Shown: positions 1 to 35,217 of the stretch, one piece after another
How the letters are laid out: each line of letters starts with the position of its first letter
Position numbering within the stretch: position 1 is the stretch's first letter
Source: a virus
Taxonomy: Duplodnaviria > Heunggongvirae > Uroviricota > Caudoviricetes
Virus record (IMG/VR): IMGVR_UViG_646564533_000012
Reading direction: 5' to 3' (one strand)
Length of the DNA stretch: 35,548 nucleotides
The notes under the pieces: model-generated
Database searches by the model: none
What the model was told of the DNA's origin: nothing
Seen by the model: the letters and a program-made list of their open reading frames with translations, nothing else
Position numbers and translations under genes: made by a program

Positions 1-61
1 GGTATCCGTTCTGCTGAAGTGTCATGGCGTTGATTTTACGGTGACTCTTCGACAGTGAAAA

Positions 62-27094: not shown

Positions 27095-27589
27095 TCAAAA
27101 CAGCCCTTTAACGGAGCTGGCCGCGCTGTTAAGGGATGATGTGACCTTGTCTTTGAAGCCGGACAGCATATCACTGAACGATGAGGATTGCAGGCGCTCC
27201 CGCAAATCCTCATCACAGCGTTCAAGAGTCAGTGAAAATTCTATCTTTTTCGCCTTACCGTAGCGATCAAACTCGGAGCGGGTCGTATTCGTTCCGGTCA
27301 GGACATACATGCCGTAAATCTGCCCGACACCATCAATCAGAGGCCAGGGGCGTCCTGTATATGCCTGCGTGGTCAGCAACGAAAGCGACACTTCGCCACC
27401 TGTAATTTCAGGATAAAGCACGCCGGAAAGCACGATGCGATCATCACCTGCACCGATATACTGCCAGCTTGCTGAACGGTTAACACGTTCATTTTTCACA
27501 TGCCGCCAGCTTTTGTTTTGCTGTAACTGCTGATGCGGCAGTGTGCGCAGCTCAAAAACAAACATGCCGTAGATCATCATCATGACCAT
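27095..27589 (-). CDS. U: tail protein U
   Basis: 164 aa; conserved LSGVLYPEITGG and WPLIDG.G.IYGMYV as in P2 gpU. Confidence 0.85.
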   Translation of the reverse strand: MVMMMIYGMFVFELRTLPHQQLQQNKSWRHVKNERVNRSASWQYIGAGDDRIVLSGVLYPEITGGEVSLSLLTTQAYTGRPWPLIDGVGQIYGMYVLTGTNTTRSEFDRYGKAKKIEFSLTLERCDEDLRERLQSSSFSDMLSGFKDKVTSSLNSAASSVKGLF

Positions 27590-27595
27590 GACTCC

Positions 27596-30412
27596 TCAAT
27601 CTTTATCGTAAAAACTGCCACGTCCGGCACGGGCGCGCCGTTCCATCTCTGCCCTGACCATTTCACCGACCAGTTTCGCCAGTTCGCGGGGATTCTGCGT
27701 AACAACGTTATGCAGATGAACATGAATTTCACCGCCAAATCCGGAGGCAACAGGCTCCCGGTTACGGGAAGTTACAGGAACTGATGCCACTGGAGATCGT
27801 ATGGCCTCCGCCACCGGGCGGGAGCTGGCCGCAACAACAGGGACCAGCGCCGGAGGCAGCGGAGCCGGGACCACGGGTGTGATATTAATTGCGGGGGCAG
27901 GCTTACTGACCTGCGCAATCTTCCGCTCCTGCCACTCCCCACGAACAGCAAGTGCGCGGGGCAGGTTCTTAAAGACAATATCGCCGGGGCCAATGCGTTT
28001 TTTCGTCTCATCAACCAGCTTACCTGTGTTATCAGCAATTTTGCTGAGTCTGCGTAGCGTCCCGGTATTGCTGTCTGTGAGCGGTTTGTTGTCTTTGGGT
28101 TTATCACCTCCGGTGCCATTGCCATTTTCCACAGGCTTCGGCGGATTGATTTTCGCAAGGTCCCCCTGAAGCAAGGCAACCTTGTCCTGAAGAATGGCCG
28201 CACGCTGTGCGTCTTCGATTTTCTTGCGCGCCCTTTCCGCTTCATCCGGAAGGACGCCAAGTTTTTCAAGTATCCACGCCAGCGTATCCAGTAGCATTTT
28301 TGCAGGTGTCAGAACAAGCTGTAACGCACCGCCAAGAACGTTACCGAATATCTCGCCAGCACTGGTACATTTATCCAGCGTTTCCTTGCTGGACTCCATC
28401 GGTGACAGCAGCGATTTAAACCAGTTAAACACCTGGCTGATCCCGCTTCCGATTGCGTCAAAAACAGGACCAAACCGTTCAAAGGTTTCGCGCAACGGGG
28501 TCAGCCTTTCCATAATCCCGCTGAACACCCCGGCAAAAAATGCCCTGATGGGATCCCAGTATTTCCAGATAAGAACGGCAGCTCCGGCAAGCGCAGCCAC
28601 GATAAGACCAACCGGACTGAACAGCGCCCCGATAGCGCCTCCCAGTAAAGAAACGGAACCCGTCACCATTCCCCACAGCGCAGGCAACACCCTGACGACA
28701 TTCATTGACCGGGTAAGAATGTCAAAACCAAGACGCAGGGTGGCCAGCTTCCCGTAAAGCACCCCAATAACCAGCGACAACGAGCCAATCGTTGCAGTCA
28801 TTGCCAGCAACGCACCGCCTGCTATCAGTAGCTGGCGCGTCAGTACCGGATGGGCCTGCGCCAGCGAGGTGATTTTTTCAAGCACCCGCGTGAGCCACTG
28901 CGTGACAGAACGCAGCGGACCGTCAACCAGATCACTGATGCGAATACGAAGACCTTCCCATGCGCTGTCGAGATTTTTCAGGTCCCCATCAAGATTATCG
29001 GCCATTACTTTTGCGACGCGATCGGCCTCTCCCCTTGCCCCCTGCAATTCTCTGGTCAGTTTTTGCAGCTCTCCTGAACCAGCCGCCGCAACAAGCGTCT
29101 GCAAACCAACGAACGCCTCTTCTCCGGCGATGTCCTTGAAGAAGGAAACCTGGTCCACCTGTCCGTATTTTTGTGTCGCCTTATAGAGATCAAGCAGCAC
29201 ATCCTCCATCGGGCGCATTTTGCCTCTGGCGTCAGCAACTGACACCCCCAGCTCTTTCAGTGCATCAGCCGCAGCTTTTGGCGGTGATGCAAGGCGGGAC
29301 AGACTTGCGCGCATGGCCGTACCAGCATCGCTTCCGCGAAGACCATTATTGGCAAGCATCCCGGCCATGGCCGCCGCTTCTTCAAGACTGATACCAAGTT
29401 TTGCGGCAACCGGACCGGTATACTTCATGGTTTCGCCCAGCGCGCGTAAATCAGTATTGGTCCGGGTGAATGCCGCTGTCAGCGTATCGCCAACACGGTC
29501 CATTTGATCGGCTGTCAGGTTGAACTGTGTGAGGATATTGGAGCCTATATCAGCCGTCTCGCCGAGTTCGACGCCACCTGCCAGCGCCATATTAAGAACA
29601 CCGGGCAATGCGGCCTGAATGGCCTGCGGAGTAAAACCAGCCATTGCCAGAAAGCTCTGCCCACTGGCGGCATCACTCGCAGTAAACTGTGTTTCAGAGC
29701 CAAGTTTTAACGCCTGCTCACGCAGCGCCTTAAACTGCGGGCTGTTTTTGTCGATTCGCGTCAGTGCCTGAACGCGGGACATCTCTTTGCCGAACCCGAT
29801 CGCAGGCTGCAAAAAACGCCCGGCAGCATAGCCGCCCGCCGCTGCCGCACCAATTGCCAGCGCACCACCTGTTTTCAGTTTCCCCGCGGTTTCCTGCGCG
29901 CGCGAATACCGCTCACGCGCCCGCGTTACACGCGCAAGCGCCTGCCGTTCGCGTTCAAGCTGGTTGTTGTACTGTTCGGTGCGTCTGATGGCCTGCTGGA
30001 TGGTGTTATCGCTGCCTGTCAGGGAAATGCCGTGTCGTTTCAGTTCTCCGCCAAGTTCCCGCATTTTCTGAATTTCCCGTGTGCGCGATTCATTCAGGCG
30101 TTCAAGCCGGGTGCTTAACTGCTGCATCAGCTTTTGTTGTTTTTCGCTGAGCACTGTACCCGTGCGTTGTAACTGATTAAGGGCGTTAAGCTGGCGTCGT
30201 GCTTTCACGATGCCCGCATCCGCTTTACTGACAGCGTCACGGGCGCGCTCAAATGAACGCGCCTGACGCTCGAGATTTTTGATCGCCCCCTGCGTTCGCT
30301 GGATGGAGTCACCAAACTGCCCCATCAGGCGGCGGGCGTTTTCGGCAGGCCGGGTCAGCCTGTCAACGGCGCTGAAAGCGACCCGGATATCAAGAGTCTT
30401 CATTGTCTGCAT
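27596..30412 (-). CDS. T: tail tape measure protein T
   Basis: About 940 aa, helical N-terminal half and Gly/Ala-rich hydrophobic core typical of tape measure proteins; start trimmed to MQTMKTL after the E' stop. Confidence 0.9.
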   Translation of the reverse strand: MQTMKTLDIRVAFSAVDRLTRPAENARRLMGQFGDSIQRTQGAIKNLERQARSFERARDAVSKADAGIVKARRQLNALNQLQRTGTVLSEKQQKLMQQLSTRLERLNESRTREIQKMRELGGELKRHGISLTGSDNTIQQAIRRTEQYNNQLERERQALARVTRARERYSRAQETAGKLKTGGALAIGAAAAGGYAAGRFLQPAIGFGKEMSRVQALTRIDKNSPQFKALREQALKLGSETQFTASDAASGQSFLAMAGFTPQAIQAALPGVLNMALAGGVELGETADIGSNILTQFNLTADQMDRVGDTLTAAFTRTNTDLRALGETMKYTGPVAAKLGISLEEAAAMAGMLANNGLRGSDAGTAMRASLSRLASPPKAAADALKELGVSVADARGKMRPMEDVLLDLYKATQKYGQVDQVSFFKDIAGEEAFVGLQTLVAAAGSGELQKLTRELQGARGEADRVAKVMADNLDGDLKNLDSAWEGLRIRISDLVDGPLRSVTQWLTRVLEKITSLAQAHPVLTRQLLIAGGALLAMTATIGSLSLVIGVLYGKLATLRLGFDILTRSMNVVRVLPALWGMVTGSVSLLGGAIGALFSPVGLIVAALAGAAVLIWKYWDPIRAFFAGVFSGIMERLTPLRETFERFGPVFDAIGSGISQVFNWFKSLLSPMESSKETLDKCTSAGEIFGNVLGGALQLVLTPAKMLLDTLAWILEKLGVLPDEAERARKKIEDAQRAAILQDKVALLQGDLAKINPPKPVENGNGTGGDKPKDNKPLTDSNTGTLRRLSKIADNTGKLVDETKKRIGPGDIVFKNLPRALAVRGEWQERKIAQVSKPAPAINITPVVPAPLPPALVPVVAASSRPVAEAIRSPVASVPVTSRNREPVASGFGGEIHVHLHNVVTQNPRELAKLVGEMVRAEMERRARAGRGSFYDKD

Positions 30413-30928
30413 TCCCGCTGCGAAGTGCCGCCCGCTCACGCCAGCTAACCACTTCGCCGGGCGTCATCATGAAGATTTCGGCGGGCGACCAGTTAAAAAT
30501 GGCGGCGATATCTGCCACCAGATCTTCGATGTGCTCAAAGCACACCAGGGTGATTACGCTGCCGTCTCCTGCACGCTCTTCGCGCCAGAGTCTGGCTCGC
30601 TCATAAAATTTACAGCCACAGCGCACAACTGAATAAAATCGCGTGACGACATTTTTTTAATCATCACTTCATCCAGTCGTGGCGAGGTCACGCGAGGCAA
30701 CAGCGTGAACATGGTATCCGCTTTCAGATTCAGCACATCAGACAGCGACAGACCACGCAGGGATCCAGCCTGTTCAATAGCCCCGGTGATCTCCACATAC
30801 GTGATTTTTTCGCCACCACGCTCAATTGGTCGGGTCAGTTTTACGCCACGTTCGACAGCCATATCCTCACCTGCCGTCACATCATCCGCCACGGTGTTAT
30901 TCCGGGTTTCAGTATCGATGTCTTTCAT
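30390..30928 (-). CDS. tail assembly chaperone E+E' (-1 programmed frameshift product)
   Basis: Seven-A run at approx 30653..30659 on the coding strand (ATT AAA AAA ATG); the -1 frame continues as the 30390..30626 track ORF; analogous to P2 E/E+E' and lambda G/GT. Confidence 0.65.
30554..30928 (-). CDS. E: tail assembly chaperone E
   Basis: 124-aa ORF between FII and T; contains the A7 slippery run. Confidence 0.8.
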   Translation of the reverse strand: MKDIDTETRNNTVADDVTAGEDMAVERGVKLTRPIERGGEKITYVEITGAIEQAGSLRGLSLSDVLNLKADTMFTLLPRVTSPRLDEVMIKKMSSRDFIQLCAVAVNFMSEPDSGAKSVQETAA

Positions 30929-30983
30929 CAGTTGTCTCCTTTTCAGTCAGAGGCGACGCACTGCGCCGCCTGCATATTACTTA

Positions 30984-31496
30984 TCAGCCAAGCCCAAGCG
31001 CGGAACGGATACGGTCAGGCACAATGTCCTTGCCGTCCTTCCGGTAAATGAAGTTCAGCAGGTCAATCTCCCACAGCGGGCGATCGTTAACGCTCAGCTT
31101 GTAGTAGGTGTTTTTAATGGCGTAAGAGTGTGATGTGGCTTCGCCCTGTTTGGCTTCCCCCATATCAATTTCCGTCACACGTCCGCGCATTTCGACTTCA
31201 TACAGGTCGCTTTCTGCATCGGTGTAGTATTCACCCGCAAAACGCAGCAGCGTGCCGTCAATCGTGCCGCCATACTTAAGGAACAGCTCACGAACTGCGC
31301 CCCCCATGACAAAGCTCGCATCAAGCGCGGAGTCGTCCAGACCGAGATCAATACTTACCGCACCCATCATGCCACCACCCCGGTAGCTGTCGGTTTTGCG
31401 CGTCAGCTTAGGCAGAGTGACGGACGTCACCTTACCCACTTCGTTTTCACCATCCACAAACAGCGTAAAAAAGCGAAGATGTTTTGGCACAGCCAT
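30984..31496 (-). CDS. FII: tail tube protein FII
   Basis: 170 aa, size and position as P2 FII. Confidence 0.9.
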   Translation of the reverse strand: MAVPKHLRFFTLFVDGENEVGKVTSVTLPKLTRKTDSYRGGGMMGAVSIDLGLDDSALDASFVMGGAVRELFLKYGGTIDGTLLRFAGEYYTDAESDLYEVEMRGRVTEIDMGEAKQGEATSHSYAIKNTYYKLSVNDRPLWEIDLLNFIYRKDGKDIVPDRIRSALGLG

Positions 31497-32680
31497 CAGG
31501 CACCTCCCAGCACCGCAAATGCGGGTTCAAAGTATTCATCAGTAAACGTCTGGTAAAGCTCCATATCTTCCAGCGGGGGAACAGGCGTATATTTGTAGCG
31601 AATACGCACACGCCCCTGACGTAAATCCGTGGTGCTGTTATCCACCACGTCATACCAGCACTCCGCGCCAATCAGTTTCCCGGCAGTAACCAGTGAATCC
31701 AGTTTTGCCCTGATGGCACTGATAACATCCTTCACGTTCGCAGGCGTCAGTGGACTGTCGATGGTTTCAAACTGCGCTTCCGCAATTGAATCAGCCAACA
31801 CCTGTGCGGTTCGGGTATACACCTCAAAGATGTAGGCGTTCGTTTCCGGTGTGCGGTTGCCCCAGAAGCGGAACCCGTTGCGACGAATAATGGTCGTGAT
31901 TTCTTTGTTGTTGAGGCTGTTGGCATCACTGTCTTCGGCCTGCAACGACCAGAACACATGCCTGGACATCCCCAGCACATTTTTAACCGGAACGTTGGAC
32001 AGCGATTTGTGCCAGCCCTGTTCATGGTCAATGTACGCACGGAGGCCGCACGCATAGGCAGGCGCGGGGAACGTTTCGTTTTTGCCACTTTTGGGGTTGT
32101 AGGCGATGAAGTCCGGCCATAAGAGCATCACCTCACGTTCGTTGAATTTCTGGCGGTAGGTAATCGCCTCAGCCATCGTGTTACAGCCGTGACATGAGGC
32201 ATACACAAACGCGCGCAGTTTACCTGCAATCACGCACAGGGATTTTGTTACAGCCTCCGTGTCCAGCTCCGGCGCGGCCAGAATACGCGGACGGTATCCG
32301 ATGCTTTCATCCTGCTCTGCAACAAGCAGCGCATACATCCCCGTATAGCTGCCGTCATCCTCAGAACCACCGATAACCAGTTGATCCTGCGTCTTTCCGT
32401 CTTCTTCTTTGTGTTCAGCCACGCGAACGACGATCACCTTTGTGCTCACCTGGTCTGCAATGGCCTTAAGCGCACGATAAAGCGTCCCCGTTGTCCCGCA
32501 TTTTCCCAGCACGTCATTGACGCGGATCAGCAGTGTGGGCTTGTTCAGCGGGAACAGCTTCGCGTCCGCATCATCCGCCGTTGCCACGATACCGATAACG
32601 CTGGAATCAACATCGTTAATCGCTGTTACCAGGTCGGTATTTTCCGTAACACGGGCACCATGAAAACGAGTTTCACTCAT
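31496..32680 (-). CDS. FI: tail sheath protein FI
   Basis: 394 aa, size and position as P2 FI. Confidence 0.92.
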   Translation of the reverse strand: MSETRFHGARVTENTDLVTAINDVDSSVIGIVATADDADAKLFPLNKPTLLIRVNDVLGKCGTTGTLYRALKAIADQVSTKVIVVRVAEHKEEDGKTQDQLVIGGSEDDGSYTGMYALLVAEQDESIGYRPRILAAPELDTEAVTKSLCVIAGKLRAFVYASCHGCNTMAEAITYRQKFNEREVMLLWPDFIAYNPKSGKNETFPAPAYACGLRAYIDHEQGWHKSLSNVPVKNVLGMSRHVFWSLQAEDSDANSLNNKEITTIIRRNGFRFWGNRTPETNAYIFEVYTRTAQVLADSIAEAQFETIDSPLTPANVKDVISAIRAKLDSLVTAGKLIGAECWYDVVDNSTTDLRQGRVRIRYKYTPVPPLEDMELYQTFTDEYFEPAFAVLGGA

Positions 32681-32837
32681 AGCTTCAGCCCCTTGTATCC
32701 GTTAAATGATTCGGCAACAATCATCACCCACCACGCGCGTAATCTCACCCCTGCGCCGTTCTCCCGACCCGGCGACAACAAAAAGCAGTAACCCCCTCCG
32801 CACGCACATGCGACCATGCCGCACAGGGAGGGAACAG
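32681..32837. promoter_or_regulatory. divergent promoter region between FI (leftward) and D (rightward)
   Basis: 157-bp gap between two divergent starts; promoters inferred from arrangement only. Confidence 0.3.
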
Positions 32838-33947
32838 ATGACCGACACCACCATGCAATTGCTCAGTCAGGGCACAGACCCCGTGAAAATGCCGGATTTT
32901 GATATTCTTGCGGAGGGTAAAACGCTGTCAGGCGTGGCAGAGCGCCTGATGAGCCTGTCACTGACCGACAACCGGGGATTTGAGGCGGACCAGCTCACCA
33001 TCACGCTGGATGATGCGGATGGTCAGTTGCAGCTACCGCCACGGGGCGCGCGCCTGACGGTTCTCATTGGCTGGAAAGGAGAACCGCTGACAGAAAAAGG
33101 CACTTACATTGTTGATGAAATCGCTCACGAAGGACCGCCGGACAGGCTGACTGTTTCAGCCAGAAGCGCAGATTTTCGGGATGAATTTAACGTTAAACGT
33201 GAGGTGTCCTGGCATGATGTGACCCTTGAGCGTGTGGTATCCGCCATCGCTCATCGGTATGGTCTGAAACCACAAATCAGCGAAATGCTGATGGATATCG
33301 AAATCGACCACGCCGACCAGACCGAAGAAAGCGACATGTCCTTCCTTACGCGCATGGCGGAAATGCTGGGCGCAATCACCACGGTAAAAAGCGGTAATCT
33401 GTTATTCATCATGCCAGGCGGTGGCGTGAACGCACAGGGCCAGCCGTTGCCCTCGTTCGCCATCACGCGCAGCAGTGGCGATCGCCATCAGTTCCGCATT
33501 GCTGACCGCGAAGCGTATACGGGGGTACGCGCTTACTGGCTTGATCTTAATTACGGGAAAAAGAAAAAAGTCAGCGTGAAACGCCGCAAACCGCCAAAAC
33601 CCAAAAAGGAGAAAAGCAGCAGCCGTGAAGGTGATTATATGGAAGGCGCAGAAGGCAATGTGTTTGTGTTACGCAAGACTTATCAGAACGAGCAGGCAGC
33701 AAGACGCGCAGCGGCGGCAAAGTGGCAGCAGCTACAACGCGGAGCCGCAGCGTTCTCCATCACACTGGCACGTGGACGCGCAGAACTCTACCCCGAAATG
33801 CATGGCACGGTAACAGGATTTAAAAGCGAAATTGATAATCAGGACTGGATTATTGCAAAAGCCGAGCACACCATTGATAACAGTGGCTTTACCACGCAGC
33901 TTGAGCTTGAAGCCAAAATCCCGGAATGGATAGCAGAAACAGAGTAA
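32838..33947 (+). CDS. D: tail protein D (late control gene D family)
   Basis: Track ORF 32706..33947 trimmed to the Met behind GGGAGGGAACAG; about 369 aa, size and neighbourhood match P2 gpD. Confidence 0.82.
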   Translation: MTDTTMQLLSQGTDPVKMPDFDILAEGKTLSGVAERLMSLSLTDNRGFEADQLTITLDDADGQLQLPPRGARLTVLIGWKGEPLTEKGTYIVDEIAHEGPPDRLTVSARSADFRDEFNVKREVSWHDVTLERVVSAIAHRYGLKPQISEMLMDIEIDHADQTEESDMSFLTRMAEMLGAITTVKSGNLLFIMPGGGVNAQGQPLPSFAITRSSGDRHQFRIADREAYTGVRAYWLDLNYGKKKKVSVKRRKPPKPKKEKSSSREGDYMEGAEGNVFVLRKTYQNEQAARRAAAAKWQQLQRGAAAFSITLARGRAELYPEMHGTVTGFKSEIDNQDWIIAKAEHTIDNSGFTTQLELEAKIPEWIAETE

Positions 33948-34956: not shown

Positions 34957-35217
34957 ATGTTCCGTTGTCCGCTTTGTGGCGCATCTGCCCGTATCCGCAC
35001 CAGTCGTCCGGAAAATGATTCAAACACCGTGCGGCAAAAGTATTACCAGTGTAACAACCTGGAATGCGGCGTATGCTTCTCAACACTGGAAGCTTTCCAT
35101 AAATTCACATCGAAACACGCCTCCGGCATCCACTCTTCAGAAGGTATCCCGTGGCATGAGCTGCCAGCTTCACACAGGGGAAACAATCAGATGAGCTTGC
35201 CTTTACCTCAGAATTAA
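34957..35217 (+). CDS. ogr: late transcription activator Ogr/Delta family zinc-finger protein
   Basis: MFRCPLCGASARIRTSR...YYQCNNLECGVCFSTLE matches the P2 Ogr C-X2-C...C-X4-C pattern; AAGGGAGG upstream. Confidence 0.9.
   Translation: MFRCPLCGASARIRTSRPENDSNTVRQKYYQCNNLECGVCFSTLEAFHKFTSKHASGIHSSEGIPWHELPASHRGNNQMSLPLPQN

What the first reader, a model, noticed from the sequence alone, without database searches (positions are those of the whole stretch)
30640..30670. A7 slippery run supports an E/E' programmed -1 frameshift
A run of seven A on the coding strand sits where the -1 frame opens into a 78-aa extension ending just before T. This is the expected tail-chaperone frameshift, but the zero-frame product continues about 30 aa past the slip site, more than I recall for P2.
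Basis: partly seen in the sequence, partly recalled or inferred. Interest (0 to 1): 0.28.

Follow-up and report, generated by a model that had tools for sequence, protein, structure and literature searches.

The report
Tail-chaperone frameshift; slip site misplaced
This P88-like prophage of E. coli has the ordinary P2-type tail-chaperone frameshift (E and E+E'), but comparison with relatives places the slip 47 bases downstream of the A7 run, at the heptamer A_AAT_TTT.

Summary
The A7 run is real. It lies on the minus strand at 30658..30652, read ATT AAA AAA ATG in gene E. The -1 frame opens inside it, after a TAA at 30659..30657.

The A7 run is almost certainly not the programmed slip site:
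- A7 runs are no more frequent in the window than chance predicts (12 found, 10.5 expected).
- In frame it reads T_AAA_AAA, which is not a canonical heptamer.
- In 14 of 43 unique relatives that carry the A-run, a -1-frame stop lies just downstream. Three of these belong to the window's own lineage.

The experimentally established P2 site (GGT TTT TTG) aligns with window GTA AAT TTT ATG. That gives the canonical heptamer A_AAT_TTT at 30611..30605, 16 codons before the E stop.
- 85 of 87 unique related sequences carry a canonical heptamer on this invariant Phe codon.
- Amino-acid conservation and the position of variable sites both switch from frame 0 to frame -1 at the heptamer, not at A7.

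The predicted E+E' is join(30928..30605, 30605..30390), 179 aa. The window lineage has lost P2's T_TTT_TTG (TTG became ATG) but keeps the overlapping A_AAT_TTT. This allele is present in about 600 complete E. coli genomes and in the plaque-forming phage phiSM.

This is an ordinary, known kind of recoding that the database records inspected here do not annotate.

The parts
30554..30928 (-). Gene E, the zero-frame tail assembly chaperone. 124 aa; ATG at 30928, TAA at 30556..30554; AGGAG Shine-Dalgarno at 30940..30936.
   Evidence: ORF list and translation. PHROG 103 'tail protein' at 1e-36. Pfam PF10109 at 20.6 bits, below the 25-bit cutoff. Aligns with P2 gpE.
30652..30658 (-). It is probably not the programmed slip site. 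It is an indel hot spot.
30657..30659 (-). TAA stop in the -1 frame. The -1 frame is open from 30656 onward.
30605..30611 (-). Predicted slippery heptamer A_AAT_TTT (GTA AAT TTT ATG; Asn107-Phe108). tRNA-Asn and tRNA-Phe re-pair to AAA and TTT, and the next codon read is TAT (30605..30603).
   Evidence: Positionally homologous to the annotated P2 site T_TTT_TTG. A canonical heptamer sits here in 85 of 87 unique relatives. Conservation switches frame here. The motif class H_HH.U_UU.Y is rated efficient in E. coli (PMC4066793).
30554..30604 (-). Dual-coding overlap: the last 16 codons of E plus its stop in frame 0, and the first 17 codons of the E' extension in frame -1.
   Evidence: In the relatives that differ here, -1-frame amino-acid identity to the window (10-15 of 16) is higher than 0-frame identity (7-14 of 16). 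Variable sites fall mostly on the -1 wobble position: 3/10/6 by 0-frame codon position.
30390..30605 (-). E' extension read in the -1 frame after the slip: 71 aa (YERARLW...NADNEDS), stop TGA at 30392..30390. It contains the GpE domain.
   Evidence: Pfam PF06528 at 46.3 bits against a 23-bit cutoff. PHROG 1756 at 1.8e-38, covering fusion residues 104-177. Translation verified.
30390..30928 (-). Predicted E+E' fusion, join(30928..30605, 30605..30390), 179 aa.
   Evidence: Translation. BLASTP against P2 E+E' gives 1e-28, 33% identity end to end.
30390..30545 (-). The 51-aa 'GpE family phage tail protein' CDS, as RefSeq and GenBank annotate it in relatives, with GTG 30545 as its start. This is probably an annotation artefact of the unmodelled frameshift.
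   Evidence: Annotation of relatives. No Shine-Dalgarno within 15 nt upstream (sequence). -1-frame conservation extends 20 codons upstream of this GTG.
27596..30403 (-). Gene T, the tape measure. Its start as annotated in relatives is ATG 30403, which overlaps the end of E' by 14 nt.
30984..31496 (-). Gene FII, the tail tube, immediately upstream of E.
   Evidence: Pfam PF04985 at 6e-47.

Best explanation
The locus is the P2-type tail assembly chaperone pair of a Xuanwuvirus (P88-like) prophage.

Proposed mechanism:
- Most ribosomes translate E (124 aa) to its TAA at 30554.
- A minority slip back one base while tRNA-Asn and tRNA-Phe occupy AAT TTT of the heptamer A_AAT_TTT (30611..30605), re-pairing to AAA TTT.
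- These ribosomes then read TAT GAG CGA... in the -1 frame to the TGA at 30390, giving a 179-aa E+E'.
- By analogy with lambda gpG/gpGT and P2 gpE/gpE+E', E and the E part of the fusion coat the tape measure T. The E' domain recruits the tube protein FII, so the fixed frameshift ratio sets the stoichiometry needed for tail assembly.

The A7 run 47 nt upstream is an incidental Lys-Lys-Met codon string, not the programmed site.

Shown here: the anatomy, the homology, the conservation of the heptamer position, and the switch in coding constraint.

Inferred, not shown: that slippage actually occurs, its efficiency, and the chaperone roles.
For: 1. Context. The order is sheath, tube, E, -1 ORF, tape measure. 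E' matches PF06528. The predicted fusion aligns end to end with P2 E+E' at 1e-28.

2. Position of the P2 site. The P2 record annotates the -1 site at GGT TTT TTG, 6 codons before the E stop. In the protein alignment P2 V-G-F-L aligns with window V-N-F-M, and the Phe is invariant.

3. Conservation of the heptamer. Of 87 unique E-3'/E' regions drawn from 253 loci, 85 have a canonical X_XXY_YYZ on that Phe codon, 14-19 codons before the E stop.
- 43 have both registers, 35 have only X_XXT_TTY, and 7 have only T_TTT_TTN. None has neither.
- The two exceptions are P2 itself, which fell outside the scan range, and one copy with an indel.
- Every lineage that lacks T_TTT_TTN keeps the upstream register: window A_AAT_TTT, L095 A_AAT_TTT, Reipivirus C_CCT_TTC.

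4. The -1 frame after the A-run.
- It is closed by a stop in 14 of 43 unique A-run sequences.
- These include window-lineage variants in which a synonymous CGC to CGT change creates TGA.
- They also include L192, which combines the ATG allele with a closed -1 frame.

5. Amino-acid identity to the window, by frame.
- Between A7 and the heptamer: 12-15 of 15 in frame 0, against 5-10 of 15 in frame -1.
- After the heptamer: 10-15 of 16 in frame -1, against 7-14 of 16 in frame 0.

6. Variable sites by 0-frame codon position, 1/2/3.
- 3/4/11 between A7 and the heptamer, resembling upstream E at 23/13/43.
- 3/10/6 after the heptamer, resembling E' proper at 8/26/12.
- Fisher p = 0.008 for the A7-to-heptamer segment against all -1-coded sequence.

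7. Motif efficiency. Sharma et al. 2014 (PMC4066793) list H_HH.U_UU.Y among the most efficient -1 motifs in E. coli. They rate UUG and UUA A-site codons lower, and A_AA.A as the weakest active tetramer.

8. The allele works in nature. The window's 60-mer is present in 598 of 5426 complete E. coli genomes. It is also in OR565851 phiSM, which is plaque-forming (PMC6456863).
Against: - There is no direct expression data for this phage.
- The window lineage lacks the P2 heptamer T_TTT_TTG, and A_AAU_UUU has not been tested in this context.
- No downstream stimulatory structure is detectable: z = -1.3 and 0.0 in the window, and a mean z of +0.24 over 48 unique relatives. This is also reported for P2 (PMC3091744).
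- In the window lineage the -1 frame happens to be open all the way from the A-run. A minor product from A7, by ribosomal or RNA-polymerase slippage, is therefore not excluded.
- The comparative counts involve related sequences, so the number of independent events is small.
Confidence: 0.85

Rival explanations
1. One reading: the A7 run (30658..30652) is the programmed -1 site. Ribosomes slip on the Lys codons and produce E(1-92) fused to an 87-aa -1 extension.
For: - The -1 frame opens exactly in the run, and in the window it is stop-free from there to E'.
- This is also true of 27 of 30 unique window-lineage variants.
- A-rich runs are known to be shifty on E. coli tRNA-Lys (PMC5009743).
Against: - In frame the run reads T_AAA_AAA, which is not X_XXY_YYZ. 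The A_AA.A tetramer is the weakest of the active ones.
- 14 of 43 unique A-run relatives have a -1 stop 4-6 codons downstream, including near-identical window-lineage copies.
- The 15 codons after A7 are conserved in frame 0, not frame -1.
- Such a fusion would delete the E helix (D97, L101, V106, F108 invariant) that P2 E+E' retains.
- A7 frequency in the window is at chance level.
Confidence: 0.04
2. Dual use: A_AAT_TTT is the main ribosomal site, but the A7 run also yields a minor alternative fusion, either by RNA-polymerase slippage (a +1 A in the mRNA) or through heritable A7/A8 length variation in the DNA.
For: - Genomic A8 alleles exist that encode exactly this 179-aa fusion as a plain ORF.
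- They lie on at least 3 backbones and about 49 contigs.
- In L255-L257 the extra A is the only indel in 3.5 kb compared with the window.
- The -1 frame is open from the run in the window lineage.
Against: - None of 574 complete RefSeq E. coli records has the exact A8 63-mer, while 562 have the exact A7 62-mer.
- High-efficiency slippage by bacterial RNA polymerase is reported for runs of 9 A or T (PMC5009743).
- There is no selection to keep the -1 frame open.
- A8 alleles would lack free E. From my own knowledge of Christie et al. 2002, P2 requires free E.
- A8 could also be a homopolymer sequencing error.
Confidence: 0.08
3. There is no recoding. E' is an independent 51-aa protein initiated at GTG 30545, as RefSeq, PGAP and GenBank annotate it in relatives.
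For: All inspected records of this group annotate a separate 'GpE family phage tail protein' CDS, and none annotates a join.
Against: - There is no Shine-Dalgarno within about 15 nt upstream of the GTG.
- -1-frame conservation and wobble-phase variation extend 20 codons upstream of that GTG, back to the heptamer.
- PHROG 1756 matches from fusion residue 104.
- The equivalent start is absent in P2, where the fusion is annotated from experiment (PMC3091744).
Confidence: 0.03

Closest known systems
Bacteriophage P2 gpE / gpE+E' programmed -1 frameshift (Christie et al. 2002; annotated in NC_001895)
   Same: - Same gene position, between FII and T.
- Homologous E and E' (33% identity over the fusion).
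- The slip occurs on the same invariant Phe codon.
- E' ends overlapping the start of T.
- No downstream RNA structure.
   Different: - The heptamer is A_AAT_TTT, with Phe in the A site, instead of T_TTT_TTG, with Phe in the P site.
- The zero-frame tail is 16 codons past the site instead of 6.
- The linker before the GpE domain is 11 aa longer, and E has a 22-aa N-terminal extension.
- The fusion is 179 aa against 142 aa.
Xuanwuvirus P88 and relatives (P88, Chuche, 500465-2, PhiR44_2)
   Same: Same genus-level gene set and order, about 85% nucleotide identity, the same A7 (Lys-Lys-Met) run, and the same position of the slippery site.
   Different: - They carry the double motif A_AAT_TTT_TTG, with both registers available.
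- They have a TGA in the -1 frame 4 codons after the A-run.
- The window lineage has ATG in place of TTG and lacks that stop.
Phage lambda gpG/gpGT (G_GGA_AAG) tail assembly chaperones
   Same: Same logic: a chaperone and a frameshift-extended chaperone encoded between the tail tube and tape-measure genes, made in a fixed ratio and absent from virions (PMC5009743).
   Different: No detectable sequence similarity was tested or claimed here. The heptamer is different, and lambda is a siphovirus. The frameshift efficiency reported for P2-like phages is 2-3 times higher.

Membership tests
P2-type E/E+E' (lambda G/GT-type) tail assembly chaperone frameshift | The gene pair lies between the major tail tube gene and the tape measure gene. 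| tested here: met
   FII at 31496..30984 (PF04985, 6e-47), E at 30928..30554, the -1 ORF running to 30390, and T from 30403.
P2-type E/E+E' (lambda G/GT-type) tail assembly chaperone frameshift | The downstream ORF is in the -1 frame, overlaps the 3' end of the upstream gene, and lacks its own ribosome-binding site. | tested here: met
   The -1 frame is open over 30656..30390 and overlaps the last 33 codons of E. No Shine-Dalgarno precedes the first in-frame start codons.
P2-type E/E+E' (lambda G/GT-type) tail assembly chaperone frameshift | Sequence homology of the upstream product to gpE (Pfam PF10109, Phage_TAC_7). | tested here: inconclusive
   - The single sequence scores 20.6 bits, below the 25-bit cutoff.
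- 6 of 8 aligned relatives match, the best at 1.5e-12.
- PHROG 103 matches at 1e-36.
- BLASTP to P2 E+E' gives 1e-28.
- Homology is therefore clear even though the Pfam threshold is not reached.
P2-type E/E+E' (lambda G/GT-type) tail assembly chaperone frameshift | Homology of the -1 extension to the GpE domain (Pfam PF06528). | tested here: met
   46.3 bits against a 23-bit cutoff. PHROG 1756 matches at 1.8e-38.
P2-type E/E+E' (lambda G/GT-type) tail assembly chaperone frameshift | A canonical X_XXY_YYZ heptamer in the 0 frame within the overlap, conserved in position among relatives. | tested here: met
   A_AAT_TTT at 30611..30605. 85 of 87 unique relatives have a canonical heptamer on the same Phe codon.
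P2-type E/E+E' (lambda G/GT-type) tail assembly chaperone frameshift | The specific P2 heptamer T_TTT_TTG. | tested here: not met
   The window reads T_TTT_ATG. This is a feature of P2 itself rather than of the family: relatives use T_TTT_TTC/T/A, C_CCT_TTC and A_AAT_TTT.
P2-type E/E+E' (lambda G/GT-type) tail assembly chaperone frameshift | Both the short and the frameshifted product are made in vivo in a fixed ratio and are required for tail assembly. | not testable with these tools
   Needs proteomics, reporter assays and genetics. The only indirect support is that phiSM, which carries the same allele, forms plaques.
A-run slippage site (ribosomal heptamer or RNA-polymerase slippage) at 30658..30652 | An in-frame canonical heptamer, or a run long enough for polymerase slippage (about 9). 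| tested here: not met
   In frame the run is T_AAA_AAA and its length is 7. Efficient RNA-polymerase slippage is reported for runs of 9 A or T (PMC5009743).
A-run slippage site (ribosomal heptamer or RNA-polymerase slippage) at 30658..30652 | The alternative frame downstream of the site is kept open and under purifying selection in relatives. | tested here: not met
   14 of 43 unique A-run sequences have a -1 stop before the heptamer. In that segment -1-frame identity is 5-10 of 15 against 12-15 of 15 in frame 0, and variable sites fall on the 0-frame wobble position.

The most novel reading that the evidence does not exclude
In the window's sublineage the A-run may be a second, heritable or transcriptional, frame switch. 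It differs from P88 by lacking the -1 stop after the run and by having lost T_TTT_TTG. A7/A8 length variation, or RNA-polymerase slippage, would toggle between normal E plus E+E' and an alternative E(1-92)-E' fusion. That would make tail assembly phase-variable in a prophage carried by about 10% of E. coli.
Probability: 0.04. Interest if true: 0.5.

Novelty: new member of a known kind. Interest (0 to 1): 0.15.

Why it matters
The main value is for annotation.
- This prophage family is present in about a quarter of complete E. coli genomes: 1369 of 5426 carry at least 80% of the E/E' segment.
- None of the Xuanwuvirus-group RefSeq or GenBank records inspected models the frameshift. E' is given as an orphan 51-aa CDS.
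- The correct join for the window allele is (30928..30605, 30605..30390).

The locus also offers a small natural experiment on slippery-site evolution. The ancestral double motif A_AAT_TTT_TTG has lost the P2 register in one abundant lineage and kept the upstream one. The same thing has happened independently in Reipivirus (C_CCT_TTC).

Nothing here challenges current understanding of tail-chaperone recoding.

Tried and rejected
- The genome-contig scan with the single E protein returned only 2 loci. An alignment would have been the better query. The viral-contig scans with three differently ordered alignments supplied the diversity instead.
- A downstream stimulatory hairpin or pseudoknot was sought and not found. 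Window folds give z = -1.3 and 0.0. Over 48 unique relatives the mean z is +0.24 and none is below -2. The alifold step of that script failed and was not repeated.
- By eye, no Shine-Dalgarno-like stimulator (GGAG, GAGG or AGGA) lies within 25 nt upstream of the heptamer.
- Christie et al. 2002 (PMC135442) is not held. The facts about the P2 site were taken from the NC_001895 annotation and from PMC3091744.
- NCBIfam gave no hit.
- The PDB sequence search gave nothing meaningful.
- Structure prediction was not run, because it would not discriminate between the two candidate slip sites.

Full report
**What is there**

The window is a P88-like (Xuanwuvirus, Peduoviridae) prophage. The E/E' segment is 100% identical to E. 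coli strain 300709 and 99% identical to phages P88_4B11 and phiSM.

The tail genes lie on the minus strand:
- sheath FI, 32680..31496
- tube FII, 31496..30984
- E, 30928..30554 (124 aa)
- an overlapping -1 ORF that ends at 30390
- tape measure T, from ATG 30403
- a 164-aa ORF at 27589..27095, in the position of the 'tail protein' gene that follows T in P88; its family was not tested.

The -1 ORF carries the Pfam GpE domain (PF06528, 46 bits). E matches PHROG 103 at 1e-36.

**Checking the observation**

The A7 run exists at 30658..30652 on the coding strand, read ATT AAA AAA ATG in E.
- The -1 frame has a TAA at 30659..30657 and is then open for 88 codons.
- The 0 frame runs 32 more codons.
- The description is therefore accurate, except that E' overlaps the start of T by 14 nt rather than ending before it.

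The run is not statistically remarkable. The window has 12 A7/T7 runs against 10.5 +/- 4.2 expected. The run is simply Lys-Lys-Met in preferred codons.

**Where the slip site really is**

The P2 record annotates the -1 site at GGT TTT TTG, 6 codons before the E stop. The literature gives the same heptamer, TTTTTTG (PMC3091744).

In a protein alignment of E homologues, P2 ...VVGFL aligns with window ...AVNFM, and the Phe is invariant. At the DNA level this is GTA AAT TTT ATG, the canonical heptamer A_AAT_TTT at 30611..30605. It lies 47 nt downstream of the A-run and 16 codons before the E stop.

**Comparative test**

I assembled 253 related loci from GenBank phages, RefSeq E. coli and three IMG/VR scans. 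They reduce to 87 unique E-3'/E' regions.
- 85 have a canonical X_XXY_YYZ heptamer on the invariant Phe codon, 14-19 codons before the E stop.
- The two exceptions are P2 itself, whose site at -6 codons fell outside the scan range, and one copy with a 1-nt indel.
- 43 have two overlapping registers, such as A_AAT_TTT_TTG or C_CCT_TTT_TTG.
- 35 have only the upstream register, with Phe in the A site: A_AAT_TTT or C_CCT_TTC.
- 7 have only the P2 register, T_TTT_TTN.
- None lacks both.

The A-run, by contrast, occurs only in the Xuanwuvirus group.
- In 14 of 43 unique A-run sequences a stop closes the -1 frame a few codons later.
- This holds for P88, Chuche, L009 and L012.
- It holds for L192, which has the window's ATG allele on a P88 backbone.
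- It holds for three unique variants of the window's own lineage, in which a synonymous CGC to CGT change creates TGA.

**Frame-specific constraint**

Amino-acid identity to the window, against six relatives:

| Segment | Frame 0 | Frame -1 |
|---|---|---|
| 15 codons between A7 and the heptamer | 12-15 of 15 | 5-10 of 15 |
| 16 codons after the heptamer | 7-14 of 16 | 10-15 of 16 |

Variable sites by 0-frame codon position (1/2/3), among 64 unique ungapped Xuanwuvirus sequences:

| Segment | Position 1/2/3 |
|---|---|
| Upstream E | 23/13/43 |
| A7 to heptamer | 3/4/11 |
| Heptamer to E stop | 3/10/6 |
| E' proper | 8/26/12 |

Position 2 of the 0 frame is the wobble position of the -1 frame.
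- The A7-to-heptamer segment differs from -1-coded sequence (Fisher p = 0.008).
- It does not differ from upstream E (p = 0.75).
- Purifying selection therefore changes frame at the heptamer, not at A7.

**Plausibility of the heptamer**

Sharma et al. 2014 (PMC4066793) tested all 64 heptamers in E. coli.
- They list H_HH.U_UU.Y among the most efficient classes.
- They note R_RR.U_UU.Y as a shift-prone exception to the homogeneity rule.
- They find homogeneous A-site codons (UUU, UUC) better than UUG and UUA.
- They rank the A_AA.A tetramer as the weakest of the six active tetramers.

A_AAU_UUU is therefore at least as credible as P2's U_UUU_UUG. T_AAA_AAA is non-canonical.

No downstream structure is evident, as reported for P2 and relatives.

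The allele is not a decaying remnant.
- The window's 60-mer is in 598 of 5426 complete E. coli genomes, against 820 for the P88 allele.
- It is in phiSM (OR565851), which forms plaques (PMC6456863).

**Mechanism (inferred)**

The slip is a tandem -1 slippage with AAU in the P site and UUU in the A site. Reading then continues in the -1 frame through TAT GAG CGA and onward to TGA 30390. The product is E+E' of 179 aa, E(1-108) plus 71 aa, which aligns with P2 E+E' at 1e-28.

By analogy with lambda gpG/gpGT (review PMC5009743), E and the E moiety bind the tape measure and the E' moiety recruits the tube protein. The same review states that frameshift efficiency in P2-like phages is 2-3 times that of lambda. 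None of this was measured here.

**An unexpected side result**

The exact protein that a shift at the A-run would give (...MIKK|NVVTRF...) is present in public protein collections as an ordinary ORF.
- The underlying contigs carry A8 instead of A7. In L255-L257 this is the only indel in 3.5 kb compared with the window.
- Such alleles occur on at least three backbones, and one A5 variant also exists.
- They are rare, about 49 contigs. None of 574 complete RefSeq records has the exact A8 sequence, against 562 with exact A7.

I read this as a homopolymer indel hot spot, either a real mutation or a sequencing error. In this lineage it happens to fuse the two ORFs. It does not show programmed use of the run, but it leaves a small probability for a dual-use or phase-variable reading.

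**Comparison with what is known, and novelty**

This is a member of the P2 E/E+E' (lambda G/GT-type) recoding family. Every testable defining feature is met except the P2-specific heptamer sequence, and that varies across the family.

No inspected Xuanwuvirus-group record annotates the slippage. The practical outcome is a corrected slip site and join. It is a new member of a known kind and of low interest.

Noticed in passing
window 30652..30658; loci L255-L258 (gene at 1501-2040): Public assemblies contain A8 alleles, and one A5 allele, of the run. These turn E and E' into a single 179-aa (or 178-aa) ORF. They occur on at least 3 backbones and about 49 contigs. None of 574 complete RefSeq E. 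coli records has the A8 sequence. The run is either a real indel hot spot or a site of homopolymer sequencing error.
   Followed up: partly
window 30435..30468: A spacer in an annotated CRISPR array of E. coli strain GmM066 (NZ_CM183652.1, 4375146..4375179) matches this stretch, at the 3' end of E' near the start of T, with 34 of 34 identical bases.
   Followed up: partly
window 30602..30613 compared with L002, L003, L009, L192, L184: The P88 lineage carries the 10-nt double slippery motif A_AAT_TTT_TTG. The window lineage has TTG changed to ATG (Leu to Met), which removes the P2 register. L184 and L192 carry the ATG allele on a P88-like backbone, which suggests recombination or a recurrent mutation.
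   Followed up: partly
L005, L006, L147, L149 (Reipivirus, Klebsiella): These relatives have GTC CCT TTC TTG. Only the upstream register C_CCT_TTC is canonical, which parallels the window's use of the Phe-in-A-site register.
   Followed up: partly
window 27095..33947: The FI-FII-E-T block and the 164-aa ORF after it (27095..27589, minus strand) is inverted relative to D (32706..33947, plus strand) and to the Ogr-like zinc-finger ORF (34957..35217, identified by eye only). In P2 all of these genes are co-directional. P88 has the same arrangement, with a DNA invertase and inverted tail-fibre genes next to the block.
   Followed up: partly
L001-L004, L006, L007 (annotation of relatives): Annotation oddities in public records. 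RefSeq phage records name the tail tube protein (PF04985) 'head closure'. OR565851 names the sheath CDS 'late control gene D protein'. The phiSM paper describes a non-contractile siphovirus tail, although the record encodes a sheath.
   Followed up: no
L013 (NZ_JBQPOM010000071.1, labelled Vagococcus sp.): An assembly labelled as a Gram-positive Vagococcus carries a P88-type enterobacterial prophage segment, which probably reflects contamination or mislabelling. Here ATC has become ATA, giving an A8 run that forms an in-frame A_AAA_AAA heptamer with an open -1 frame.
   Followed up: no
L158 (IMGVR_UViG_2526164662_000048): This copy appears to have a 1-nt insertion inside E' (GAAGACTTTGGTGGC against GAAGATCTGGTGGC, compared by eye only), which would break the -1 ORF. 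It is either a degenerate prophage or a sequencing error.
   Followed up: no
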